Source: Cenarchaeum sp. (GTDB lineage Archaea; Thermoproteota; Nitrososphaeria; Nitrososphaerales; Nitrosopumilaceae). Taken from it: 64,000 nucleotides of DNA. Below the pieces are notes generated by a model. It did not search any database and was not told the origin of the DNA. It saw only the letters and a program-made list of their open reading frames with translations. The stretch covers positions 1,184,001 through 1,248,000 of the forward strand of contig OZ242221.1 in the NCBI GenBank assembly GCA_965206845.1, in the 5' to 3' direction. Position numbers and translations under genes: made by a program. Within the stretch, counting starts at the first letter, position 1, and each line of letters starts with the position of its first letter. Shown here in pieces: positions 1,204 to 63,316 of the stretch.

Positions 1204-2238
1204 TTGGAGGGAATCAGGGCCTACGGCGCAGAAGAGTTTGCCAAAAGCCTGGAGGGGAAGCGGTTTCTGTTCTCCCTTGTCATGTCGTACACCCGTACCT
1301 GCGAGATACCCGGCATCACCGTTGCCGGCGCAAACCCGGACATGCTAAAGTTCACGCCGCCGGCAGACGCAGAGTTCATCCGCTACGGGCGCTGCAGGTG
1401 CATCGACGCCATACCAATGACGCCAGACGGCAAGCCCACGCCGGCGCTCTTCACCCGCGTGGCGCTAAACGCAGCCGACATCCCCTTTGTCGCAATAGAC
1501 GCAGGCGGCGTCATAGAGCCGCAGATGCCCTTCATTCAGACAGGACTCAAACCGGGCGGGGACATCTCCCGGGAGCCGGCAATGTCCAAACCCTCCCTCC
1601 TGAGGGCCATAGAGTACGGCAAGGCGACGGGCCAGATGCTGGCGCCGCTGACTGACTGCCTGGTGATAGGGGAGAGCCTTCCGGGGGGGACCACCACGGC
1701 GCAGGCGGTGATGAGGGGACTGGGAATCGACGCCCGGTCAAGCTCCAGCATGCCCAAAAACCCCGTGTTCCTGAAGGAGAAGGTCGTAGCGGCCGCGCTG
1801 GACAGGCTGCATTCCAGCGACCCGCAAGACATAATATCACAGCTGGCAGACCCCATGATCCCGTTTGTTGCTGGCATGCTCTCATCGGCATCCCGGACCG
1901 CCCGCGTCATGCTTGCCGGGGGAACGCAGATGGCAGCCGTTCTGGCAGTCGCCAGATCCCTGAACCTTGGGATAAGGAGCACCGCCATAGGGACCACCAG
2001 GTACATCACAGACGACAGGACCGCCAACCTCCTGGACATGGCAGACGTGCCCGTGCTGGCAGTGGATCCAGGCGTCTCAGGCTCCCACATAGGCGGGCTC
2101 CGGGCGTTCTCCGAGGGCTTTGCCAAGGAGGGCGCCGGCGCCGGCGGCAGCATGATATCTGCCGTCCTCAAGGCGGGCATCACAACATCACGCCTGCGCA
2201 CCCTCGCAGAGGCCGAGTACGCCCGGATATCTACCTGA
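1204..2238 (+). CDS. cobT: Archaeal nicotinate-nucleotide:dimethylbenzimidazole phosphoribosyltransferase (CobT-like)
   Basis: IPGITVAG, PTPALFT, GESLPGGTTTA, LAGGTQM, KEGAGAGG motifs. Confidence 0.85.
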   Translation: MEGIRAYGAEEFAKSLEGKRFLFSLVMSYTRTCEIPGITVAGANPDMLKFTPPADAEFIRYGRCRCIDAIPMTPDGKPTPALFTRVALNAADIPFVAIDAGGVIEPQMPFIQTGLKPGGDISREPAMSKPSLLRAIEYGKATGQMLAPLTDCLVIGESLPGGTTTAQAVMRGLGIDARSSSSMPKNPVFLKEKVVAAALDRLHSSDPQDIISQLADPMIPFVAGMLSSASRTARVMLAGGTQMAAVLAVARSLNLGIRSTAIGTTRYITDDRTANLLDMADVPVLAVDPGVSGSHIGGLRAFSEGFAKEGAGAGGSMISAVLKAGITTSRLRTLAEAEYARIST

Positions 2239-3991
2239 CGGTGACTGACTTTGCAAGGTTTCTGGGCCGGTCGGGGTTCGTATCCCTCTCCAGGGCGGTA
2301 TAGTACGAGAGCAGCTGAATCGGGACTATCTCCACTATGGGGTATATGGACTCGTGCAGCTTTGGAATCCGGATCCAGTGATCGTACAGATCGCTGGGGC
2401 GGTCCGATACGCCGATTATCCTGGCGCCCCGGGCCTTGATCTCGCTTGTGCTGTTTATCATGTCCTGGTATGTCTCGTCATCTGGATTTATCACGATTAC
2501 ATGCGTGCCGGGGCCCATCAGCGCCAGCGGCCCGTGCTTGAGCTCGCCACCGGGAATGCCCTCGGCATGTATGTAGGAGAGCTCCTTGAGCTTCAGGGCG
2601 GCCTCGGCGGCGATCGGGTGGTGGACGCCCCTTCCCAGCACGTAGATGTCTGATGAGTCCCTAAGCTCCGAGGCAATCTTCCTTATCTTGTGATAGTCTG
2701 CCAGTATGCCGCTTATGGCATGGGATATCTCCCCAAAGTCCACCTTCAGGCACCCGTGGCACAGCCTGTCGACGATCTGGTATATGACCGCCAGCTGCGC
2801 GGTGAAACTCTTGGTGGCCGCCACGCCGATCTCGGGCCCGCAGTTCATGGCCAGCACCTGCGACGACTCCTGCGCCAGGGACGAGAGGAGCATGTTGACG
2901 ATGGAGATGACTCTGGCGCCCGACCTCTTTGCTATGCGCACAGCTTCTAAGACGTCGGCGCTCTCGCCGCTCTGGGATATTGCGATCAGCACCGAGCCCG
3001 GATCGATGGATCCTGGCGTAAACGGCATCTCGCTGGATATTATGGGCTCAAGCCGCACCCCTGCATACTTTGAGAGCAGGTATCTTGCCACCAAGGCGGC
3101 ATTGTAGCTGGTGCCGCTGCCTGTTATGTATGCGGACCCGGCATTCCGGATTAAGGTGGCGGCATGCTCTATGGCGTCTGCGGCCCCCTCGCCGGACCGG
3201 AGCACCGTGTCTGGCTGCTCGGATATCTCCTTTTGCGTAAAGTGGGCAAACTCGCCCCTGTACACGTCGGCAAACTCCTTTGAGACCTTGGTCAGCGGCC
3301 TCCTGACCCGGTTCCCCTCAAAGTCGTAGATGTCCAGACCCGCGTCCCCGATGACTGCCACGTCCCCGCTGTCCATGTATATGGCGTCATCGGTCTTCTC
3401 GATGAATCCCAATACGTCGCTTGACAGAAAGTGCGCGCCGCCCCTGACACCTATGATCAGCGGCACGTGAAGCCTGGCGGCTGCCAGCGTGCCGTCCTCA
3501 AACATGGCCACAAACGCATAGTCGCCACGTATCCTGCGCACGGTCCTGAGCACGGCCTCCAGGATGTCGCCCGCATCGTCATAGTTCTTCTGGAGCAGGT
3601 TTGCCAGCACCTCGGTGTCAGTCTCCGACTCGAATGTAAACCCGCAGGACAGCAGCTCCTCCTTGAGCTCCTTGTGGTTCTCGACTATGCCGTTGTGCAC
3701 CAGGGCCAGGCCGCCGGTGCTGCTAGAGTGGGGGTGCGCGTTGATATCCGTTATGCCACCGTGGGACGCCCATCGGGTGTGGCCTATTCCGATGGTGCCT
3801 TTCATCGAGTCCAGCCCGACGGACTTGTTTACGGCGGACACCCCGCCGACGCCCTTCCTTACCTGAATCCTGCCCCGGCTCCGGGTGGCCACGCCGACGC
3901 TGTCGTACCCGCGATACTCCATGCGCTTCAGTCCGTGCACCAGGATGGGGGCCGCGACGCCGCGCCCGCGATAGCCGATTATCGAACACAT
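2231..3991 (-). CDS. glmS: Glutamine--fructose-6-phosphate transaminase (isomerizing)
   Basis: N-terminal MCSIIG, EYRGYDS, GHTRWASHG, SQSGE, ELKHGP, C-terminal PRNLAKSVTV. Confidence 0.97.
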   Translation of the reverse strand: MCSIIGYRGRGVAAPILVHGLKRMEYRGYDSVGVATRSRGRIQVRKGVGGVSAVNKSVGLDSMKGTIGIGHTRWASHGGITDINAHPHSSSTGGLALVHNGIVENHKELKEELLSCGFTFESETDTEVLANLLQKNYDDAGDILEAVLRTVRRIRGDYAFVAMFEDGTLAAARLHVPLIIGVRGGAHFLSSDVLGFIEKTDDAIYMDSGDVAVIGDAGLDIYDFEGNRVRRPLTKVSKEFADVYRGEFAHFTQKEISEQPDTVLRSGEGAADAIEHAATLIRNAGSAYITGSGTSYNAALVARYLLSKYAGVRLEPIISSEMPFTPGSIDPGSVLIAISQSGESADVLEAVRIAKRSGARVISIVNMLLSSLAQESSQVLAMNCGPEIGVAATKSFTAQLAVIYQIVDRLCHGCLKVDFGEISHAISGILADYHKIRKIASELRDSSDIYVLGRGVHHPIAAEAALKLKELSYIHAEGIPGGELKHGPLALMGPGTHVIVINPDDETYQDMINSTSEIKARGARIIGVSDRPSDLYDHWIRIPKLHESIYPIVEIVPIQLLSYYTALERDTNPDRPRNLAKSVTVR

Positions 3992-4037
3992 ATGTCTACT
4001 TTATCCAGTACTGGCATATTTACAGATACTTGCGCGG

Positions 4038-5714
4038 TTACGGGGAATTATATACATGAGTACGCAGTACCCTGCCTTTTTGTGGCGCTCTTGCAATCCC
4101 TCCCACGCGTGGCTCTTGCGTGTTGTTTGCGGAGCGTCCGGAAGCAATCCCGGCCTGGAATCTTACGCCTTTGGACGACGATCCCCGCCGCCCTGCCGCC
4201 ATGGCTGTCGCCTTGGAGGCAATGTTATGCGCCGCGTTTATGTCGGCGTTGATGTCATTGTCACACTTGTCATTGGTGCAGTGGAACTTTCCCTGCGATA
4301 TGCGGGAGTCCCTGTCTTTGTGGCCGCACATGTGGCATGTGATGCTCGTGCCACTTGGGTCGACCGTGATGACCGCAACGCCCATGTTTTCGCATGTCTG
4401 CTCAATCTGGCTCAGGAACGTCCTCGGGCGCGAGTATGCCATCTCGCGGTTGAGGCCGGTCTTGGCGGAGCTTCCCTTGCCTTTGCCCCTGGCCGTCATG
4501 TTCCTGATGTTCAGGTCCTCGATGACAACCGTGCCGGCGCCGTCGGCTATCCTCTTGGACGCGTGTCGCTCCCAGTTGGTCTGCTTGTTGGCAATCTTCT
4601 CACGCTTCTTGCGGATCCTCCTTTGCAGATCCTTGTAGCTGCGGGACTTGGGGTTCCTGGACCTATTCCTGTTGCTGCCGTTCGTGTTTTTGCCCCCGTC
4701 GTTTGCGCCACCATTGCGAGCCTTGATCCTCCTGCTGCCGCTGCCTCCCCCCTTTCGTGAGAGCTCCGCATACATCTTCGATATGTCGTCGTTCTTCGTC
4801 CTCTTGCTGCCGTCCGGGATGTCGTGGAACTCGGCGTAGCCGGTATCAAGGTCGACGGTGGTGGCGTTGTGAACTATGCCCATGTCGACCCCCCTGATGA
4901 CATCTGACGTTTCGGGCTTTGGCGCCTCCATCCCGACCTGTATGTGAAGCCTGTACGTCCTGTTGTGTTTTTCGGTGAGCCTAGTGGTCTTCTTGGTCGT
5001 CTCCACCAACTGGAAGGATCGCATGTCCAATCCCTCAACGTCATCATGCACCTTCACGGTACCGATGCCGGGAAGCATCACCATGCCGTTGCCCTTGGAC
5101 ACCGGCTTCTCGAACACGGAGAGGGACCGCATTTTTCCCTTCCTCTTGAACAGGTCGCCCCTGTGGCTCCACTTGTTCTTTTTGTTGCTCCATTTGTTGG
5201 ATGGTAAATTTGCCGCCGTGTCAACATCCTCAACTCCCTCCTTTTCCCTGTAGCGCCTGGCCAGGTGTTTCCACAGTGCGTTGTTGCGGCGCTTTTTCCC
5301 GTTGGATTCTATGAACTTCTTTACCGCGTCCAGGCCCTGGCGGAGCCCTACCCTCTGAACCCTGCTGTCGCAGGCCTCCCTGATCCCGGCAGTCCGCGCA
5401 TAGTCATCATGGACCAGCCACGCCTTCGCGTTCCTCCATTTCGTGAGCATCCTGCAGAGGTCATAGAATGTTACGTCAGGGCTTCTGAGCGCCTCCTGGA
5501 CGGCCATGTTGAACGCCCACCTCTGTTGATCCATGTGACGCGATATGAGGACGGAAAGATCACCGGACTGGTCAAAGTCCGCCTTTATGGTGCGGATCAT
5601 CGTGTCTGGCGTAGCCGCCGTGGCGGATTTCGCTTTCGCTTCTGGCTCTGGCGCGGCTGCCGTTGCCACCATATCGATTGATTTCATTACCGCATTCAAT
5701 ATTCCACATCGCAT
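4038..5714 (-). CDS. tnpB: TnpB RNA-guided endonuclease (true start may be a downstream ATG)
   Basis: RuvC-I GVDMG, RuvC-II VIEDL, Zn finger CHMC...CTNDKC, RuvC-III NADINAAHNI; all three catalytic acidic residues present. Confidence 0.93.
   Translation of the reverse strand: MRCGILNAVMKSIDMVATAAAPEPEAKAKSATAATPDTMIRTIKADFDQSGDLSVLISRHMDQQRWAFNMAVQEALRSPDVTFYDLCRMLTKWRNAKAWLVHDDYARTAGIREACDSRVQRVGLRQGLDAVKKFIESNGKKRRNNALWKHLARRYREKEGVEDVDTAANLPSNKWSNKKNKWSHRGDLFKRKGKMRSLSVFEKPVSKGNGMVMLPGIGTVKVHDDVEGLDMRSFQLVETTKKTTRLTEKHNRTYRLHIQVGMEAPKPETSDVIRGVDMGIVHNATTVDLDTGYAEFHDIPDGSKRTKNDDISKMYAELSRKGGGSGSRRIKARNGGANDGGKNTNGSNRNRSRNPKSRSYKDLQRRIRKKREKIANKQTNWERHASKRIADGAGTVVIEDLNIRNMTARGKGKGSSAKTGLNREMAYSRPRTFLSQIEQTCENMGVAVITVDPSGTSITCHMCGHKDRDSRISQGKFHCTNDKCDNDINADINAAHNIASKATAMAAGRRGSSSKGVRFQAGIASGRSANNTQEPRVGGIARAPQKGRVLRTHVYNSP
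4041..4175 (-). ncRNA. Putative omegaRNA (reRNA) scaffold copy 1, overlapping tnpB 3' end
   Basis: Canonical omegaRNA position; hairpins CCGGGA-TTGC-TTCCGG and GGGTAC-TGC-GTACTC; 5' boundary uncertain. Confidence 0.7.
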
Positions 5715-5794
5715 AAAAGCGCCGATGCAACACTGTCATTAGTATGCAGACCATGCAGACTGTCAATACCGTAATGGCCATTTTTGCCACTGGT

Positions 5795-5926
5795 CGGGCG
5801 CGAGACTCCGGCGCGGGATTGCTCCCGCGCGTTCCGTGAATCAAACGCGAGAACCAAGCGTTGGAGGGATTGCAAGAGCGCCACAAAAAGGCAGGGGTAC
5901 TGCGTACTCATGTATATAATTCCCCG
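5795..5926 (+). ncRNA. Putative omegaRNA scaffold copy 2, inverted, upstream of tnpB
   Basis: Homologous to copy 1; outer ~63 bp identical except a 1-nt indel; hairpin GCGCGGGA-TTGC-TCCCGCGC keeps pairing despite substitutions. Confidence 0.62.
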
Positions 5927-5927
5927 G

Positions 5928-6476
5928 TTACGCCTCTACGATTGCCACGTCGGGCGCAGGCGCCTCTTCTGCGGGAGCCTTCTTTAGGATGTCGCCAAAC
6001 GACGAGCCCGGCGTAAGCCCGATCCCGTCCTCCTCCGCCACTGTCACGATATACGACGGAATGTCAATTACCCTGTCCCCGATTGATATGTGCCCGTGCA
6101 CCACGGCCTGCCGTGCCTGGTATGCCGTCTTGAAGCCCATCCTCTTTACGATTATGGTCTGCAGCCTCCTCTGCAGCAGGTCGGTCACCTGCAGGTTCAG
6201 CACGTCATCCAGCGTTGACTCGGCCTGTATGAGGCCTATGCGCGCAAGCGAGCTGAGCAGTATCGGCTCCCGTTCCTGCCTCTCCTCCTGCCTCAGCGCT
6301 AGGAGAGCGCGGGCCTGCTTTCTTAGCCTTGAGAGCTCGGTGTGCGTCTTCCAGAGCTCCCTCTTGGTTCTGAGCCCAAAGTCGCCCAAGGTCTTGAGCT
6401 CCTCCACCTTTAGATCATAATTGAGCGGGCGCTTTGGCTTTCTCCAGTTCTTTCTTGGCAGCTTTGGATCTCCCAT
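5928..6476 (-). CDS. rps4: 30S ribosomal protein S4 (uS4)
   Basis: MGDPK...GLRTKRELW...RRLQT...QARQAVVHGHI. Confidence 0.97.
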   Translation of the reverse strand: MGDPKLPRKNWRKPKRPLNYDLKVEELKTLGDFGLRTKRELWKTHTELSRLRKQARALLALRQEERQEREPILLSSLARIGLIQAESTLDDVLNLQVTDLLQRRLQTIIVKRMGFKTAYQARQAVVHGHISIGDRVIDIPSYIVTVAEEDGIGLTPGSSFGDILKKAPAEEAPAPDVAIVEA

Positions 6477-6485
6477 GGTATCACC

Positions 6486-6968
6486 CTATTTGGATCCCCC
6501 GGACTTTGCCGGTTGAATCTTTCCGCCCTTGGCCACCCCGACGGCTCCGCCTCTCCTTCCGGCGGTGCGGGTGCGCTGGCCTCTTACCTTGAGGCCGTAC
6601 ATGTGGCGGTAGCCCCTCCAGCTGCCGCTGATCCTCTCCCTCTCCACGTCATTGCGTATGGTAAACTCGATATCGGAGTTGAAGATGTGCTTGTTCTCCC
6701 CGGTCTCCGCATCCTTGCGCCTGTTGAGGAACCATGTGGGAATGTCGGCAGCCTTAGGATCCTGCAGGATCTTCTCGATGGACTCCACCTGCGGCTCGGT
6801 CAGGTATCCGATGTGCGAGCTGGGGCGTATGCCGGTCATATCAAGGATCGCTGTGGAAAAGCTGCGGCCCACGCCGCGGATCTGGGTCATGCCCACAAGT
6901 ATTGTCTTGTCTCCGGGGATGTCATTGCCGAGAATCCTCACTATATGTCTGTACTCCTGGTCGGCCAA
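6486..6968 (-). CDS. rps13: 30S ribosomal protein S13 (uS13); start reassigned to TTG at 6968
   Basis: [36 protein letters not shown]. Confidence 0.95.
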
Positions 6969-26824: not shown

Positions 26825-28032
26825 GGGGTTGGTGCGTAATTCTCTGAACCGCCTAGACCAGTCCGATACGTTCAATGATCCGCGATCTCCCGCACGCGGC
26901 AATGAGCGAACACAGCAGACGGGAAGGATACTGGCAGTACTATGAACTGGCAAAGGAAGTCGAGGCACCCAGCCTGAAGAGGGAGCTGATCGAGATAATC
27001 CGGGAGAACCCTTGCCCGCGCCGAGAAAACGGCAACAGGGGCCGTCCCCCGGTTCACTCCAAGGAGAAACTGGACTTTGCCTGTCTGCTGATGATGGCAG
27101 GCAACAACACCTATCGCGGAGTCGAATCGGACCTGCGAGGCATGCGGACACCATGGGACAACGAGCCCGTCCCGGACCATACCACACTGGTCAGGCACCT
27201 CCAGACGATACCGGCAGACTGGCTCGATCTGATCGTGGCCGAGACGGCCCGCCGTTGCATCAAAGAGGCGGACGAGGCGACGGGCCCGCTGGGAGCCGAC
27301 AGCAGCGCGGCGGAGACCACTAGGTACGAATACGTCGAGAGGCCAAGCAGGAAGGAGCGCGACTTCGTCGAGACACGCCAAAAGACCTACTGGAAATACC
27401 ACATAACGGCCATCTTGGGCCTGCAGATCGTGCTGGCGGCGTTCACCACGCCCAGCAACATCAACGACACGACCATGCTTCCAGTCATGCTGGCTGAGAT
27501 CAGGCGTCGCGGGTTTGACTTTGCGGGGAACTTCTTTGACGGGGACAAGGGGTACGACTCTGACTACAACTGCGAGCTGCTGTTCTGGATGGGCATGATC
27601 CCCAACATCAAGCAACGGAAGGATGCCGTCAACCGTGGCAAGTCGCACAGGAGGAAGGCAGCCGGCATGTTCAGCGATAGCGAGTACAGAAAGAGGGCCC
27701 TGATAGAGGGCATCTTCGGGGCCGAGGAGACCCGGCGGCACCAGCTGCACTGCCGGTTCGTCCGGGAGGACAACCGGCGCCGGTTCGCCAAGGGAAGGGC
27801 GATCGCTTGGAACATCCGGGTCCTCAACCGGTTCGAGTGCGCCAACCGGCTAAACATGCCGATACCCTCCTACGGTGGCATGGCGCACGTGGAGTGCGCC
27901 TGATGATCCGACCCGTCAGTAGCTGATCACGGCGTGCGGGCAACAAAGCCCGACACACACCAAAGCACCGCCGGTGAAGATGCGGTGGGAGACACACATG
28001 AGCAGGACGGAGCAGAATTACGCACCAACCCC
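26825..28032 (+). mobile_element. IS5-family insertion sequence, apparently intact
   Basis: 19-bp TIR GGGGTTGGTGCGTAATTCT; 9-bp TSD GATGTGGCG at 26816-26824 and 28033-28041. Confidence 0.93.
26875..27903 (+). CDS. IS5-family DDE transposase
   Basis: PDHTTL, GADSS, GDKGYDS, RALIEGIFG. Confidence 0.9.
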   Translation: MIRDLPHAAMSEHSRREGYWQYYELAKEVEAPSLKRELIEIIRENPCPRRENGNRGRPPVHSKEKLDFACLLMMAGNNTYRGVESDLRGMRTPWDNEPVPDHTTLVRHLQTIPADWLDLIVAETARRCIKEADEATGPLGADSSAAETTRYEYVERPSRKERDFVETRQKTYWKYHITAILGLQIVLAAFTTPSNINDTTMLPVMLAEIRRRGFDFAGNFFDGDKGYDSDYNCELLFWMGMIPNIKQRKDAVNRGKSHRRKAAGMFSDSEYRKRALIEGIFGAEETRRHQLHCRFVREDNRRRFAKGRAIAWNIRVLNRFECANRLNMPIPSYGGMAHVECA

Positions 28033-28268
28033 GATGTGGCGTGGATATGGGATCGCGTCTTTTCCCCCATCCGGGCACGAGGACGCACGCCCGGAGAGGC
28101 CTCTGCGCCTGGCCCAAGGCAGCAGGTGATCCCTGTACTGGCGTGGCATGTGGGCTCATCTGCCGTACCAAACCCGGTGGAGAGCCTCCCGGGTATGCGA
28201 TACGGCTTGGCGCTCCCGCATCTGCACGGCGCGGGCGGATCCGGTGACGGCTCGTAGCCGGTACAGTA

Positions 28269-28371
28269 TGGTGCAGAAGGTGGGATTCGAACCCACGAAC
28301 CCCTAAGGGAAAGGATCGCCCATGAACTGATCTTGAGTCCTTCTCGGTTGGCCGGGCTTCGGTACTTCTGC
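28269..28371 (-). tRNA. tRNA-Leu(CAA) with ~15-nt anticodon-loop intron and encoded CCA
   Basis: Acceptor GCAGAAG/CTTCTGC-ACCA, T-loop GGTTCGAATCC, anticodon stem AAGGA/TCCTT around CTCAAGA plus insert, long variable arm. Confidence 0.93.
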
Positions 28372-28517
28372 ATGGTGGGTTCACACGCTCCTTTATTTCT
28401 CAATTGCGGCTCCCCTGGGTGCGGGCGCGCACGCCCCGGCCGGATCGCCGCGCCTGGCCGGCGCGGCAGACACCGGAGCTACTCAAGAATTTTAACTCGG
28501 TGAAAAAGACCCTTGGT

Positions 28518-45953: not shown

Positions 45954-46022
45954 GATTAAAGTCTGTTCTACTGGTTCTATGGTGTGTATGTGTGCCTAGT
46001 CAGACCGCTGCACTTGTTCCTG

Positions 46023-46160
46023 AGACATGATCCGCAATTAAGAATCGAGCCTTCGATGCCCATAATCTTACAGATGTGTGCTCCAAAGCATGCAACTTTC
46101 GTATGATTGTGCCAAAGATCATGCTCTAATGTGCTTGCGTGCTAATTACGAATCACATCT
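46023..46160 (+). mobile_element. MITE copy 1 (138 bp)
   Basis: Ends AGACATGATCCGCAATTA / TAATTACGAATCACATCT; TSD CTG. Confidence 0.9.
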
Positions 46161-46745
46161 CTGCTGCAGTGGCAGGCGTGGTGATTCGCGTCTACTGGGG
46201 CAGGTTTGTGCAGTTGTGTAAGGCCGCCTGCCAACCGATCCGGATCACAGTGTCATGCCGTGTGGGCTTTCGCGGCTGGCCATAATGCCGCCCGAAACTT
46301 TTGGTATGTGGACCAGAGTCATTTGGTTATGCTCGCGAGCCTCAATATTCTGTAGATCGGCTCTTTACGGTTCCACCGGAAGCTCCAATCACACACTGCG
46401 GTTTACATGCTGCCGGATCCTGTATTTTTGCCATATCCTGGCATGGCATGTGATCACGGGCAATCCATCTCCAACTCAAACTTTCAGCAAGCAATTGTGC
46501 ATGACATCTAACACAAAACCCGTATTGTTTTGCCAAAACCTATGACTGTTACCAGGATGTGCGCAGGTAGTTCCGCATGGAGGAATCCCGTGTATGACAT
46601 GTTGCGGTCCGGCCGGTTTTTTTAAAATAAAAAACTCTATAATTTTTACAAATCTGACAATTATGCCCAATCTATTTTATGGATTTATTTCCGGTAATGT
46701 GGTTGTCTGCGAATGTGGCAAACCATTTAATTACTTTGACGATAA

Positions 46746-47560: not shown

Positions 47561-47697
47561 GGACTTGATCCGTAATTAAAGATCGAGCCTTTTTCGTCCA
47601 ACACTTACAGAGATGTGTTTCGAAATAAACAAATTTTGCGTGATTATGCCGAAGATTGCGCTATTTTATGCCCGGGCGCTAATTACGAATCAAGTCT
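47561..47697 (+). mobile_element. MITE copy 2 (137 bp, divergent subfamily)
   Basis: Ends GGACTTGATCCGTAATTA / TAATTACGAATCAAGTCT; TSD CTG; shared internal words CTTACAGA, TGATTATGCC. Confidence 0.85.
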
Positions 47698-47782
47698 CTG
47701 CTTCCGGATTGCCGCATATCTGGCATGGCAGGTTTCGGAGTAGGTGCCCGCGTACAGCAGAGTCTCTGACGGCGCACGGTGT

Positions 47783-55913: not shown

Positions 55914-57269
55914 ATGCCACCCGTCATTATGACCTCGCCAAAGGACGACGGGCAAGCACACCAGATATCCGTTACAAGGCCGGTATTTGAATACCTTGGT
56001 AAGCTTTTGCGAACCACAATATCATTCCCGTTATCCACCAGGCACAATGCCATGTATGGATTCGATGATATGTACCGTGTCCTGACAATGATGTGCACGA
56101 ACAAGGCATCCGGCAGCTCCGAGGCAGGAGCGCTGTCTGACCTGCAGGACAGCGGGAAGACACCATCCTCACGGTGGGTGCTGGGCAAGATCCGCGCGAT
56201 CGATGCCAGGGAGATCCGCGAGCGGTGCGATCACGCGATCAAGCGGGAGGTATTGGACATGAAGAAGGCAGGCATGTTCAGGAATCCTGTTGTTGTGGCG
56301 ATAGACGAGCACCTGGTGGGCTGGTACGGCAAGGGTTCGGGCTCGCAATACATAACCCGCTCCAAGTCGAAAAACGGGACGAGCAGGTTTTACAGCTTGT
56401 CCACGGTGCACTGCGTGGCCGGCGGATCCAGGGCCGCGCTTGGGGCCCGGCTCGTCAAGAAAACGGATAATGACGGCGATGTCGTGAGTAAATTGCTCGA
56501 AAAATGCTCGGAATTGAGGATAAGGTCCAGCAGGGTTCTGCTGGATCGCGGATTCTTCTCGGTTGACGTGATCCAGACCCTGAATCACTACGGAAAGGCG
56601 TTCATAATGCCCGCCATCAAGGGACCGGGAATCAGGAAGGCCATAATGGAGCATGTGAAAGAGAAACGCCCGGCCGTTTCAAAGTACACCATGACATCAA
56701 GGGAAGGATACATCGCGACATTCACGCTGGTAATACTGGAAAAGACGCCAGAGCCCGACGAAGTCAAGAAGGAGACGGACCGGTACATTGTATTTGCAAC
56801 CAACGTGCGGGCTAGGAGCAAGCAGGATCTCATCTCCAAGATTCCCGACGAGTACAAAAAAAGATGGGGAATCGAGACCGGATATGCCTGCATGGAAAGG
56901 GCAAGGCCGCGAACCTCCAGCAGGAACGACTCGATCAGGATACTCCTGAGACATGATCCGCAATTAAGAATCGGGTCTTCGATGCCCATAATCTTACAGA
57001 TGTGCGCTCCAAAGCATGCAACTTTCGTATGATTATGCCAAAGATCGTGCTCTAATGTGCCTGCGTGCTAATTACGAATCACATCTCTGATGTACCTTCC
57101 GCTGGTGATTTACAACGCGTGGATCATGGAAAACTACGCGGCTGGCGCATGCGCCGGTGGGGGCAGGCCCGTCATCACACTCAGGCGCCTCATGTCCCGC
57201 TTTATCCTGATCATAGCGGTGTCAGTACTTTCCTCGCGGTATTCTCACTACCTGGAATTTGTCGGGTAG
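55914..57269 (+). pseudogene. ISH3-family DDE transposase disrupted near C-terminus
   Basis: AIDEH, LLDRGFFS, RWGIETGY; removing MITE plus one TSD restores ...SIRILLMYLPLVIYNAW... Confidence 0.88.
56949..57086 (+). mobile_element. MITE copy 3 (138 bp)
   Basis: Near-identical to copy 1; TSD CTG. Confidence 0.92.
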
Positions 57270-61313: not shown

Positions 61314-63316
61314 CAGTTAGCTCAGAAGTGACTAGTATCTAGGGTGGGCATTGGCTGGAGAATATGCGGCAGGCCACGCGCCAGAAGCCAAAATGTGAGC
61401 CGTCCTGTGTGATCATGTGCAATTTGGGTGTGCGGGGGCGCAGCATGCCATCGGTGATCCCCGTATGGCGCAAAAGGACGGGCCGGTGCGGAGTGTGGGA
61501 CCGGCTGCAACGCAGTGGGGAGGCAGGTGCAGCCCCGGGATTGGCGGCGCGCGACCTTCCGGCCCATTACTGCGGCAGGCGGCCCCGTAGGGACTACTGC
61601 GGAAGTGGTGGGGCGGCGCTGACGCCGCGGCATGTGGCACCTGTGCAGCAGGGGCAGTGCGGATCGGGCGGCGGCTTTCCGCCGTCCATGCCCCGGGGAA
61701 GGATCTCCATCAGCATGATCACCTTCATGTCGGTCTGCGTGAATCTGGAGTAGGCGCCGCCCAGCGTGAGCGGGTTGCCTGTCAGCTCGGCGTTTGCGAG
61801 AACCCAAGCGTTGAACAGTACAAGCGAGTAGAGAAAGCAGAGCGTCCTGACGGTGACGCTCCTGCTGCGCGTCCTTAGATGTGATTCGTAATTAGCACGC
61901 AGGCATATTAGAGCACGATCTTTGGCATAATCATACGAAAGTTGCATGCTTTGGAGCACACATCTGTAAGATTATGGGCATCGAAGGCCCGATTCTTAAT
62001 TGCGGATCATGTCTCTTACCCTCTCGTTCTCCACCATCCTGAAGCCCGTCTCTATCATCCACCTCTCGGCGTACCTGTCGACGTCGATCTCTGGCCTGTT
62101 TGTGGCAAACGCGATGTACCGCTCCTCGGGCTCTTCTTCGCAGGATTCCGCCTCTTCTTCGCAGGATTCCGCCTCTTCTTGCTCTTTCTCTTGCGCTCCG
62201 TTATGATCATGGCATATTCTGCGTAATCGTTCTTGGACTTTGTTATGCGGAACCCCGATACCGGCGGGCGCTCCCCTTTGGAGAACTCCGTAATGGCATC
62301 GACCACGTTGGGGGTGTTGACGCAGGGAATGAGGTAGCCCACGCCCAGCTCCTCCAGCGTCCTGATGACGTCAGTAGAGAAGAACTCGCGGTCAAGCATG
62401 ACCGTTCCGATCCCGGCACCCGTCCTCCTGCACGCCGTGATTGCCCTGCGCACGTAGTCGGCCGTGTCCTCAAGGGCAGGCATGTGCAGCAGCGCCAGCG
62501 CCAGCTGCACGCCCGGCCTGACGCACTGCGCCACAACGTACCGCTCGAAGGTGCCCGTCCTGCCCTTGCTCTTTGAGCGCACCAGTTCGGCCCCGTGCTT
62601 GCGATCCCAGCGCCGTATCAGGTGCATGTCAATGGCAATGTCCATCCGTTTTCCGCGAAGCAGGCCAAGCGACTGCAGCCTGTCCAGGTGGGAGGATATC
62701 ATTCCTTCAAGCGACCTTGCCAGATCGCCCGGGTCAATCCCCAGGCAGATGTGGGACATCCACTCGCCGCAGGGGGCCTCGCGGTGGCGCTTGGCGAGCA
62801 TGCATGAGGCCGTCTTCCATCTCCGCACGGCTGCGGTATATCCGAAGATCGAGGCGCCGAGCGCGGCGGCCCCCATCATGATTGCATGAAAGGCGGCAGA
62901 TCCGTACCTTGCGTTGGGCTTTTTGGAGAGCGGGACGATCGGATCGAACGCGGCTTCTGCCTCGCTCGTGGCGGACGAGCGGAGCCGCCGGTCGTTTGCG
63001 ATGGAGCGCCGCATGCCTCTCGGCAGGCGCGGCTTGCCTGTCATTTGGCGCTCCTCCAACCTCCGTTCCCAGCGGGGCGCGGGATCGAGTTAGGCTTAAA
63101 TGTCGATTCTGTGAGTCTAAACCGGTGTGTGAGCCCGTTCATGGTTGTGCATTGACGGGTACTCTCACGCCGTTCATTTAACATGCAATGTTGCCTGTTT
63201 TGCAGGCGTTGGCAAATACTTCACAGCACGAGGGCGGTTGCGCATGCGTCTGTGCCGTCAGCAACGATCCGTAGTACGTCTCCACGCAGTCATGCCAGTC
63301 ACTTCTGAGCTAACTA
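61314..63316 (-). mobile_element. ISH3-family IS with frameshifted, MITE-interrupted transposase (63059 to 61594)
   Basis: TIR AGTTAGCTCAGAAGTGACT at both ends; 5-bp TSD CAACC (61309-61313, 63317-63321); AIDMH, LDREFFS, RWMIETGF. Confidence 0.92.
61877..62014 (-). mobile_element. MITE copy 4 (138 bp)
   Basis: Reverse complement of copies 1 and 3; TSD CTT on + strand. Confidence 0.92.

What the first reader, a model, noticed from the sequence alone, without database searches (positions are those of the whole stretch)
4035..5932. TnpB element whose terminal inverted repeats are two omegaRNA-like scaffolds, flanked by a TSD: candidate dual-guide, DDE-mobilised TnpB transposon
Seen: the ~130 bp overlapping the tnpB 3' end (4041 to ~4170) recurs inverted upstream of tnpB (~5797-5926). 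The outer ~63 bp are identical except one indel and the inner part is diverged. A direct repeat flanks the unit (GTTA, or CGGTTACG depending on boundary), and no transposase is encoded. TnpB retains the D-E-D RuvC residues and the Zn finger. Established: the TnpB omegaRNA overlaps the tnpB 3' end/right end with its guide read from flanking DNA; IS200/IS605 (HUH) and IS607 (serine recombinase) elements have neither long TIRs nor TSDs. Inference: this element has two right ends facing outward, can make two guides (one per flank) and is moved in trans by a TIR-recognising transposase. I cannot confirm from here that this architecture is unreported.
Basis: partly seen in the sequence, partly recalled or inferred. 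Interest (0 to 1): 0.92.

Follow-up and report, generated by a model that had tools for sequence, protein, structure and literature searches.

The report
TnpB transposon with IS1595-type ends
This is a real, mobile 1.9-kb element that carries only the RNA-guided nuclease gene tnpB, has the inverted ends and 8-bp target duplication of IS1595-family cut-and-paste transposons, and bears at its left end an inverted partial copy of the guide-RNA scaffold that has not been shown to make a second guide.

Summary
A 1,882-bp unit (window 4043-5924) holds one intact tnpB. It ends in inverted arms of about 128 nt and is flanked by the 8-bp duplication CGGTTACG. A contig from another run joins the flanks exactly, skipping 1,890 bases with 8 shared letters, so the unit inserted as one piece.

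It is one of about 16 diverged tnpB elements in this 1.65-Mb archaeal genome. All share the terminus GGGAATTATATAC. Ten of 15 elements with both ends have perfect 8-bp duplications. The genome has no Y1 or serine transposase. The same terminus lies about 55-65 bp upstream of IS1595-family DDE transposases here and in relatives. The best reading is a non-autonomous TnpB element moved in trans by an IS1595-family transposase.

The right end encodes a structured omegaRNA (9 compensatory pairs). The left arm is an inverted scaffold fragment (helices H3-H6, with H1-H2 missing). It is closer to sister elements' right ends (92%) than to its own (84%). A second guide is unproven, and homologous left arms in other copies have decayed.

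A G precedes the left-side duplication in 15 of 15 elements, which may be a TAM.

DDE-linked TnpBs with inverted ends are already published. IS1595 is not among the partners named in the texts I read. This is a new variant of a known kind.

Novelty: the architecture class is in print. Altae-Tran 2023 (PMC10691335, section 9 read) describes DDE-associated TnpBs with inverted terminal repeats and solo TnpBs moved in trans. I did not find the long scaffold-bearing arm or the IS1595 partner in the texts I read.

The parts
4035..4042 (.). Left copy of the 8-bp target-site duplication CGGTTACG. It contains the stop codon used by the extended tnpB ORF.
   Evidence: The empty-site joint 4034->5925 has 8 letters that fit both sides.
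4043..4055 (-). Right-end terminus. On the + strand it reads GGGAATTATATAC. It is the 13-bp core of the inverted repeat and also the 3' tail of the omegaRNA scaffold.
   Evidence: Present (at most 2 mismatches) at the right ends of 14 tnpB copies and at 8 left ends in the scan. Also found in IS1595 loci.
4043..4221 (-). omegaRNA scaffold region with helices H1-H6. H2-H6 occupy about 4043-4193. It overlaps the last ~58 codons of tnpB.
   Evidence: Alignment A2 of 17 right ends: 41 predicted pairs, 9 with compensatory changes. X1 contigs cover 4033-4195 with 0 differences.
4038..5687 (-). tnpB coding sequence, 549 aa from the likely start MKSIDMV at 5687. The first in-frame ATG is at 5714 (558 aa).
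   Evidence: Homologues start at MK(S/P)I. A conserved TTTTAT box lies ~31 nt upstream.
5688..5796 (-). Upstream module conserved among the copies. It probably contains the tnpB promoter.
   Evidence: Homologous stretch upstream of tnpB in most copies. The promoter role is inferred.
5797..5924 (+). Left arm: an inverted, 5'-truncated omegaRNA scaffold (H3-H6) facing outward. H1 and H2 are absent.
   Evidence: Pairs kept: H3 5/5, H4 6/6, H5a 4/4, H5b 5/5, H6 8/9. Nearest to right ends O and F at 92.2%, own right end 84.4%.
5912..5924 (+). Left-end terminus. On the + strand it reads GTATATAATTCCC.
5925..5932 (.). Right copy of the 8-bp target-site duplication CGGTTACG. It contains the rps4 stop codon (5928-5930, minus strand).
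5928..6476 (-). Context gene with ribosomal protein S4-like sequence. The element sits just after its stop codon. The name is mine, taken from the translation; no family search was run.
   Evidence: ORF.
2231..3991 (-). Context gene that looks like glmS. The element lies ~45 bp upstream of its start. The name is mine, taken from the translation; no family search was run.
   Evidence: ORF.

Best explanation
Window 4043-5924 is a non-autonomous TnpB transposon of a family that uses IS1595-type ends.

Shown:
- It is a discrete 1,882-bp unit with an 8-bp target duplication, and a matching empty site exists.
- It encodes only an intact TnpB.
- Its right end encodes a structured omegaRNA whose last 13 nt are also the transposon terminus.
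- The same terminus, and about 20 nt of adjacent consensus, is the transposase-proximal inverted repeat of IS1595-family DDE transposons in this genome and in related genomes.

Inferred:
- An IS1595-family transposase acting in trans binds the two termini, cuts the element out and pastes it in with 8-bp staggered cuts.
- TnpB with the right-end omegaRNA carries a guide made of the duplication plus the right flank. It cuts unoccupied copies of the site so that recombination copies the element back in (homing).
- The G found just 5' of the left-side duplication would be the TAM, or part of it.

The long left arm is a second right end from a sister element. It serves mainly as the second transposase-binding end. 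It is probably not a working second guide-RNA gene.
For: Unit and mobility:
- One search shows a joint 4034->5925 that skips 1,890 bases with 8 letters common to both sides. It is in a 1,165-nt contig of run X5 (side 235) and weakly in X9 (side 27).
- Of the 15 elements with both ends identified (14 in this genome plus L046), the 8-bp duplication is perfect in 10 (C, E, F, G, H, I, K, M, O, L046), 7/8 in A and B, 6/8 in N, 5/8 in J and about 1/8 in L. No left end was found for D.

No other transposase:
- PF01797 (Y1) has 0 matches and PF00239 (serine recombinase) has 0 matches in a genome that is 99.99% complete. The named control genomes gave matches.

IS1595 link:
- An exact GGGAATTATATAC terminus lies 63 bp outside a decayed IS1595 N-terminus at 1466759-1467163. 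That remnant is 62% identical to the intact copy and has 2 stops.
- The intact 309-aa IS1595 transposase at 27527-28453 has a 5' end matching the element's end at 18 of 23 positions.
- In relatives, 7 of 14 IS1595 loci examined carry GGG(A/G)ATTATA(T/G) 54-65 bp upstream of the transposase start.
- The left ends of B, E, H, K and L match the L053 inverted repeat at 21 of 24 positions, counted by eye.
- L068 holds a decayed IS1595 gene and a tnpB 3' part inside one pair of termini.
- The IS1595 family usually makes 8-bp TSDs, and the related Merlin elements have TIRs starting with GG (PMC8101967, introduction passage).

omegaRNA: 41 predicted pairs, 9 with compensatory changes, in 17 right ends.

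TnpB is intact.

Left arm:
- It is nearest to right ends O and F and lacks H1-H2.
- Left arms of A, C, G, I and N are decayed, yet C, G and I have perfect duplications.

Asymmetry: G at the base 5' of the left-side duplication in 15 of 15 tnpB elements.
Against: - No intact IS1595 copy with the exact terminus at both ends was found in this genome. The intact copy has a diverged 5' end and no recognisable second end.
- No clean two-gene IS1595-tnpB element was found. L068 is decayed and could be a recombinant.
- The tnpB family was not found in 60 relatives or in 400 genomes of the same taxonomic family. Comparative support therefore rests on this genome, on L046 and on distant TnpBs in genus g18.
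- The G could be a target preference of the transposase and not a TAM. The two IS1595 ends in this genome also have G at that place, while 0 of 7 IS1595 ends in relatives do. One orphan left end at 1008018 has A.
- Transposition, RNA-guided cleavage and homing were not tested.
- The left arm of this copy keeps every helix from H3 to H6. Both long-arm elements (J and M) have C just after the right-side duplication, the base a mirror-image TAM would need. That leaves room for a second guide.
Confidence: 0.75

Rival explanations
1. Dual-guide element. The left arm is transcribed outward and makes a second, shorter omegaRNA whose guide is read from the rps4-side flank. TnpB could then recognise the empty site from either side.
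For: - The left arm keeps all pairs of H3-H6, by way of differences from its own right end that preserve pairing.
- In both J and M the arm starts exactly at the first base of H3.
- J and M both have C directly after the right-side duplication, the mirror image of the G seen on the left in all elements. Only 4 of the 14 elements with a matching duplication have C there, so the chance that both J and M do is about 0.07 (my count).
- A MITE-like pair of arms at genome 1178385-1178757 has one arm with H2-H5 intact and no tnpB.
Against: - The arm lacks H1-H2.
- It is 92% like the right ends of O and F, so its intact helices may only reflect a recent origin.
- The left arm of J has unpaired changes (H3 4/5, H4 4/6, H5b 4/5). 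The homologous left arms of A, C, G, I and N have lost H3 and H4 although three of them have perfect duplications. Selection for a second RNA is therefore not general.
- No outward promoter was identified.
Confidence: 0.15
2. TnpB itself, an RNase H-fold (RuvC-like) D-E-D enzyme, is the transposase of these one-gene elements, so they are autonomous.
For: - All 15 elements with both ends carry tnpB as the only gene they share, and most copies are intact.
- Duplications are mostly perfect.
- No intact transposase with exactly these ends is present in the genome.
Against: - The termini are those of IS1595 transposons that encode their own DDE transposase.
- Published experiments found TnpB dispensable for transposition, and it acts as an RNA-guided nuclease (statements in PMC3627910 and PMC13565253, passages read).
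Confidence: 0.05
3. It is an ordinary IS200/IS605 (IS1341-group) or IS607 derivative. The inverted arm would then be an unrelated neighbouring insertion and not part of one unit.
For: The protein belongs to the TnpB families usually found in those elements. The left arm does come from a different subfamily's right end.
Against: - The empty site shows that the arm, tnpB and the right end inserted together with one 8-bp duplication.
- Fourteen other elements have the same termini, and most have 8-bp duplications.
- The genome has no Y1 or serine transposase.
- IS200/IS605 and IS607 make no TIRs or TSDs (PMC13565253 and PMC3627910, passages read).
Confidence: 0.03

Closest known systems
DDE-transposase-associated TnpB branches (Altae-Tran et al. 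2023, PNAS, PMC10691335, section 9 read; listed as ISL2, IS630 and IS1031 partners in the 2026 review PMC13565253, passage read)
   Same: Prokaryotic TnpB inside elements with symmetrical inverted terminal repeats. The tnpB 3' end lies within 250 bp of the transposon end. Solo TnpBs have the same ends as transposase-bearing elements and are taken to be moved in trans.
   Different: The partner inferred here is IS1595 family, which is not named in the texts I read. Supplements were closed, so the clade may still be listed there. In some copies here the inverted repeat extends to ~128 nt and contains most of the guide-RNA scaffold.
Fanzor1/Fanzor2 in eukaryotic cut-and-paste transposons (Bao and Jurka 2013, PMC3627910; Yoon et al. 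2023, PMC10711439; passages read)
   Same: One-gene TnpB-like elements bounded by TIRs and TSDs and moved in trans. The TIR forms part of the guide-RNA scaffold. One Fanzor1 element has perfect 8-bp TSDs (IS4 type).
   Different: Those elements are eukaryotic or viral. Their short fixed TSDs (TA, TTAA) act as part of the TAM or scaffold. Here the TSD is 8 bp of variable sequence and would be the first part of the guide. Merlin, the eukaryotic relative of IS1595, does not occur in the text of Bao and Jurka 2013 (0 occurrences).
IS1595 family insertion sequences (Pfam PF12760 and PF12762)
   Same: Termini starting with GG, 8-bp TSD, and the same ~22-nt inverted-repeat consensus as IS1595 copies in this genome and in relatives.
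   Different: The element has no transposase. tnpB and an omegaRNA occupy the interior. The family is described as having a single transposase gene (PMC8101967, introduction passage).
IS200/IS605 IS1341-group tnpB-only elements and their PATE derivatives (PMC3119063, passages read)
   Same: tnpB as the only gene, many diverged copies per archaeal genome, and a guide RNA at the 3' end.
   Different: Those elements have no TIRs and no TSDs, carry subterminal palindromes and depend on a Y1 TnpA. Here there are TIRs, 8-bp TSDs and no Y1 gene in the genome.

Membership tests
TnpB (OMEGA RNA-guided nuclease) | OrfB_IS605 and Cas12f1-like TNB domains, with the RuvC D-E-D triad and the CxxC...CxxC zinc finger | tested here: met
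   Pfam E 4.4e-09 and 8.3e-16, both above the cut-offs. D277, E399, D491 and C460/C463/C479/C484 are invariant in 18 proteins.
TnpB (OMEGA RNA-guided nuclease) | Structured omegaRNA overlapping the 3' end of the gene and ending at the transposon end | tested here: met
   41 predicted pairs, 9 with compensatory changes, in 17 right ends. There was no Rfam match, so the RNA is a family-specific scaffold.
TnpB (OMEGA RNA-guided nuclease) | RNA-guided, TAM-dependent DNA cleavage | not testable with these tools
   The only hint is the conserved G 5' of the left-side duplication in 15 of 15 elements.
IS200/IS605 (including the IS1341 group) | No TIRs and no TSD; insertion 3' of a fixed 4-5-nt target | tested here: not met
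   13-bp to 130-nt inverted ends and 8-bp duplications of varied sequence.
IS200/IS605 (including the IS1341 group) | Mobilised by a Y1 HUH TnpA | tested here: not met
   PF01797 has 0 matches in the complete genome, while the control genomes gave matches.
IS607 | Serine recombinase TnpA; no TIRs and no TSD | tested here: not met
   PF00239 has 0 matches. TIRs and TSDs are present.
IS1595 family (as a non-autonomous derivative) | 8-bp TSD and inverted repeats starting with GG | tested here: met
   Ten perfect 8-bp TSDs in 15 elements. The terminus is GGGAATT... The family features come from PMC8101967.
IS1595 family (as a non-autonomous derivative) | Ends shared with elements that encode a Zn-ribbon plus DDE_Tnp_IS1595 transposase | tested here: met
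   Own genome: an exact 13-nt terminus beside a decayed copy, and 18 of 23 matches beside the intact copy. Relatives: 7 of 14 loci.
IS1595 family (as a non-autonomous derivative) | Transposition by that transposase | not testable with these tools
   Inference only. No intact copy with exact ends at both sides was found.
Published DDE-associated TnpB branches (Altae-Tran 2023) | Placement of this protein in one of the six DDE branches of their tree | not tested
   Branch membership is in supplementary files, which were closed. The main text does not name IS1595.

The most novel reading that the evidence does not exclude
The element is a two-guide homing transposon. Both outward-facing scaffolds make omegaRNAs, so TnpB can read the empty site from either flank. 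The invariant G beside the left-side duplication, with a mirrored C on the right in the two long-arm copies, would be a one-base TAM. That TAM would tie RNA-guided homing to an otherwise sequence-blind IS1595 cut-and-paste transposase.
Probability: 0.12. Interest if true: 0.8.

Novelty: new variant of a known kind. Interest (0 to 1): 0.55.

Why it matters
A 2026 review that I read in passages says TnpB is rarely coupled to DDE cut-and-paste transposons in prokaryotes. It asks what such transposons gain from a homing nuclease when excision already leaves a break.

This genome gives a compact natural test set:
- about 15 diverged elements with clean ends and intact TnpBs;
- a covarying guide RNA whose 3' tail doubles as the transposase binding site;
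- an empty allele in nature;
- an orientation-specific G next to the duplication, which can be tested directly as a TAM.

It also adds IS1595, the prokaryotic relative of eukaryotic Merlin, to the partners of TnpB. It shows that a right end can replace a left end in these elements. The practical value is modest: a new archaeal TnpB-omegaRNA pair with a possibly very short TAM.

Tried and rejected
- Rfam scan of 3500-6500 at E<=1 gave no match.
- The IS66-family transposase inside the L046 element was first taken for the element's own transposase. I rejected this because it is a separate IS, with its own inverted repeats and an 8-bp duplication, inserted into the left end. The own genome holds only fragments of it plus one distant copy with an in-frame TAG.
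- Searches for the tnpB family outside this genome found little. DNA arm in 60 relatives: 0. Protein in 60 relatives at E<=1e-20: 0. 400 genomes of the same taxonomic family at E<=1e-40: 0. Genome contigs: 1 real locus, L046, plus one weak match. Metagenome contigs: 0. Viral contigs: 0. The rest of the L046 genome held no further copy.
- The protein database holds 147 relatives at E<=1e-10.
- No second end was found for the intact IS1595 copy.
- A clear second inverted repeat was seen in only 1 of the 5 relatives' IS1595 loci examined (L057).
- My recollection that the ISfinder ISNwi1 group ends read 'ggnnatTAT' could not be verified. I do not use it as evidence.
- RNA runs, parts without cover. 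In X1 (labelled RNA only by a guess) no contig covers 5744-5883, most of the tnpB body, or glmS. X5 and X6 do not cover the left arm.
- The X1 contig over the right arm ends at 4033, followed by 11 unlike letters. Its neighbour ends at 4195, close to the start of H2. Contigs cannot show RNA ends, so this is only a hint of an omegaRNA of about 150 nt.
- The MITE-like pair at 1178385-1178757 has no clear 8-bp duplication; only 4 bases are shared.
- The sigma-70 promoter scan was not run because the organism is archaeal.
Full report
OBSERVATION. The repeat is real. The repeat finder reports two inverted pairs, 4070-4169/5797-5896 (100 nt, 81%) and 4041-4081/5886-5926 (41 nt, 90%). These are one repeat split by an indel. 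Self-blastn gives a single 130-nt inverted match at 84.6%, E 1.3e-36. Between the arms lies one ORF, 4038-5714 on the minus strand. It has the Pfam domains OrfB_IS605 and Cas12f1-like_TNB. In an alignment of 18 family proteins D277, E399, D491 and four zinc-finger cysteines are invariant. The likely start is MKSIDMV at 5687, because homologues start there and a conserved TTTTAT box lies ~31 nt upstream. The ORF runs through the whole right arm. In most relatives the stop is the TAA inside the terminus. This copy is shifted in frame near the end and stops in the flanking duplication.

BOUNDARIES AND MOBILITY. All copies in the genome share a terminus that begins at GGGAATT. This fixes the element at 4043-5924 (1,882 bp) and the direct repeat at 8 bp, CGGTTACG (4035-4042 and 5925-5932). 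Laying public runs on 3800-6200 gave a joint from 4034 to 5925 that skips 1,890 bases with 8 letters fitting both sides. It occurs in a 1,165-nt contig of run X5 (235 letters on the shorter side) and weakly in X9 (27 letters). It shows that the arm, tnpB and the right end entered as one unit. Contigs of run X1 cover both junctions of the occupied allele (4033-4141 with 0 differences; 5884-6200 with 2), which argues against a misassembly. The insertion lies between the stop codon of an S4-like gene (the stop is inside the duplication) and the start of a glmS-like gene ~45 bp away (gene names are my reading of the translations).

A FAMILY, NOT A SINGLETON. The 1.65-Mb single-contig genome holds 14 full-length or nearly full-length tnpB paralogues (57-69% identity to this one by tblastn) and 3 fragments. 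Each has the arm at its 3' end. With L046, a contig from a near relative, both ends could be set for 15 elements. The 8-bp duplication is perfect in 10 (C, E, F, G, H, I, K, M = this one, O, L046), 7/8 in A and B, 6/8 in N, 5/8 in J, and absent in L. No left end was found for D. The duplicated sequences differ from site to site.

WHICH TRANSPOSASE. The genome has no Y1 transposase (PF01797, 0 matches) and no serine recombinase (PF00239, 0 matches), while the control genomes gave matches. It has two IS1595-family genes:
- An intact 309-aa copy at 27527-28453. Its 5' end, GGGGCTTATATCGCTGAGTACAC, matches the tnpB-element end at 18 of 23 positions.
- A decayed N-terminal piece at 1466759-1467163. 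It is 62% identical to the intact one and has two stops. It lies 63 bp inside an exact GGGAATTATATAC terminus.

In related genomes (G016, G018, G062), 7 of the 14 IS1595 loci examined carry GGG(A/G)ATTATA(T/G) 54-65 bp upstream of the transposase start. The left ends of elements B, E, H, K and L (GGGAATTATATAGTTAAGTGAAC) match the inverted repeat of L053 at 21 of 24 positions (my count). In genus g18, distant TnpBs (24-39% identity) are bounded by the same termini. L076 has a perfect 8-bp duplication. L068 holds a decayed IS1595 gene and a tnpB 3' part within one pair of termini. A paper passage states that IS1595-family members are usually flanked by 8-bp TSDs, and that the related Merlin elements have TIRs starting with GG (PMC8101967, introduction). 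I therefore read these as IS1595-type non-autonomous elements moved in trans.

There are weak points. No intact IS1595 copy with exact ends on both sides is in this genome. No clean two-gene element was found. The family was not found in 60 relatives or in 400 genomes of the same taxonomic family. An IS66-family gene inside the L046 element turned out to be a separate insertion into its left end.

THE RNA AND THE SECOND ARM. Seventeen right ends fold into a common structure of 41 pairs in six helices (H1-H6) within the last ~180 nt. Nine pairs show compensatory changes. The invariant 13-nt terminus is the single-stranded 3' tail. Adding left ends to this alignment gives the following.
- The left arm of this element (5797-5924) keeps H3 5/5, H4 6/6, H5a 4/4, H5b 5/5 and H6 8/9 pairs. 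It begins exactly at the first base of H3 and lacks H1 and H2.
- The other long arm, in element J, keeps fewer pairs (H3 4/5, H4 4/6, H5a 4/4, H5b 4/5, H6 7/9).
- The shorter right-end-like left arms of A, C, G, I and N keep only H5b and H6.
- The left ends of F and O show no such likeness beyond the terminus. By sequence, the left ends of L046 and of B, E, H, K and L (not in this alignment) are of other types too.

By identity, this left arm is nearest to the right ends of sister elements O and F (92.2%), not to its own right end (84.4%; inner half 71%, outer half 98%). It is therefore a right end of another subfamily that now serves as a left end. Whether it makes RNA is open. Its intact helices may simply reflect a recent origin. 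The decay of homologous arms in elements that still show perfect duplications (C, G, I) argues that a second RNA is not generally needed.

AN UNEXPECTED ASYMMETRY. In tnpB orientation, the base just 5' of the left-side duplication is G in 15 of 15 tnpB elements. The first duplicated base is T or C in 14 of 14. The base after the right-side duplication is not conserved; it is C in 4 of 14. With G at roughly 0.3 of bases (my rough figure, not measured here), 15 of 15 is far beyond chance. In an empty site this G sits exactly where a TAM for the right-end guide (duplication plus right flank) would be.

Against a pure TAM reading, the two IS1595 ends in this genome also have G there, and one orphan left end at 1008018 has A. 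IS1595 ends in relatives have G in 0 of 7. Both long-arm elements, J and M, are among the four with C on the right side, the mirror of the G. The chance of that is about 0.07, which is only a hint.

RNA DATA. Run X1, whose RNA label is a guess, has contigs over 4033-4141 and 4112-4195 with no differences, and a 1,058-nt contig running from the S4-like gene into the outer 41 nt of the left arm. Contigs cannot give ends, strand or level. Parts without cover are reported only under Tried and rejected.

COMPARISON WITH PRINT.
- Altae-Tran et al. 2023 (PMC10691335, section 9 read) report six DDE-associated TnpB branches, all with inverted terminal repeats, and solo TnpBs with the same ends that are taken to move in trans. 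The main text names IS630 only.
- A 2026 review (PMC13565253, passages) lists ISL2, IS630 and IS1031 as partners.
- Bao and Jurka 2013 (PMC3627910, passages) describe Fanzor one-gene elements with TIRs and TSDs, and state that prokaryotic TnpB-only elements lack them.
- Yoon et al. 2023 (PMC10711439, passages) show TIR and TSD forming part of the Fanzor guide-RNA scaffold.
- Searches for IS1595 with TnpB and for TnpB with target site duplication, DDE transposase, omegaRNA and archaea found no report of an IS1595-TnpB element or of a scaffold repeated at both ends. Supplements were closed and may bear on this.

VERDICT. The transposon reading (TIRs, TSD, trans-acting DDE transposase) is supported and sharpened to the IS1595 family. 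The dual-guide idea is unproven, at about 0.12-0.15. This is a new variant of a known kind, of moderate interest. Its most testable new points are the orientation-specific G and the use of a guide-RNA scaffold as a transposon end on both sides.

Noticed in passing
window 46018-46162, 56944-57088, 61877-62014 (96.6-97.8% to the L046 copy) and 47562-47699 (72%); more than 40 matches genome-wide: A ~140-bp MITE-like repeat with inverted ends, starting GAGATGTGATTCGTAATTA. It is scattered through the genome and is also inserted inside other mobile elements, for example beside the decayed IS1595 at 1466148-1466291 and inside the L046 element.
   Followed up: partly
L046:738-2726; own genome 500712-501569, 445727-446115, 499311-499513: An IS66-family insertion sequence (PF03050) with its own inverted repeats and the duplication TTCGGTAG is inserted into the left end of the tnpB element in L046. 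The window's genome holds only fragments of it. One fragment abuts a terminus-like GGGGAATTGCATGCC.
   Followed up: partly
L046 (contig CBDCSY010000001.1): The contig is titled a Dehalococcoidia MAG, yet its mobile-element sequences are 92-98% identical in DNA to copies in this archaeal genome. It is probably a mis-binned contig from a close relative.
   Followed up: partly
genome G000:C1:1178385-1178757 (outside the window): A 373-bp MITE-like pair of inverted omegaRNA arms with no tnpB. One arm keeps helices H2-H5 intact and the other is decayed. There is no clear 8-bp duplication.
   Followed up: partly
window 5884-5932: The stop codon of the S4-like gene lies inside the duplication. Read in that gene's direction, the left arm's terminal hairpin is followed by a run of five T. 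An X1 contig coming from the S4-like gene stops right there, so the element may supply that gene's terminator. Contigs cannot prove an RNA end.
   Followed up: no
L053 and L054 (G062, G018): Directly downstream of the IS1595 transposases in relatives, the DNA reads like a DNA methyltransferase (SPPY and FxGxGTT-type motifs, by eye). It may be a passenger gene. No family search was run.
   Followed up: no
genome G000:C1:1114385-1115500: A distant IS66-family transposase homologue (28% identity) with a 480-aa open frame interrupted by a single in-frame TAG.
   Followed up: no
genome G000:C1:1008018-1008412: Beside a sequence that reads like the 3' end of a tRNA gene (my reading; no tRNA scan was run), an orphan left end is interrupted by a second left end, followed by the tnpB upstream module and the 140-bp MITE. 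No tnpB is present. It is a graveyard of nested insertions.
   Followed up: no
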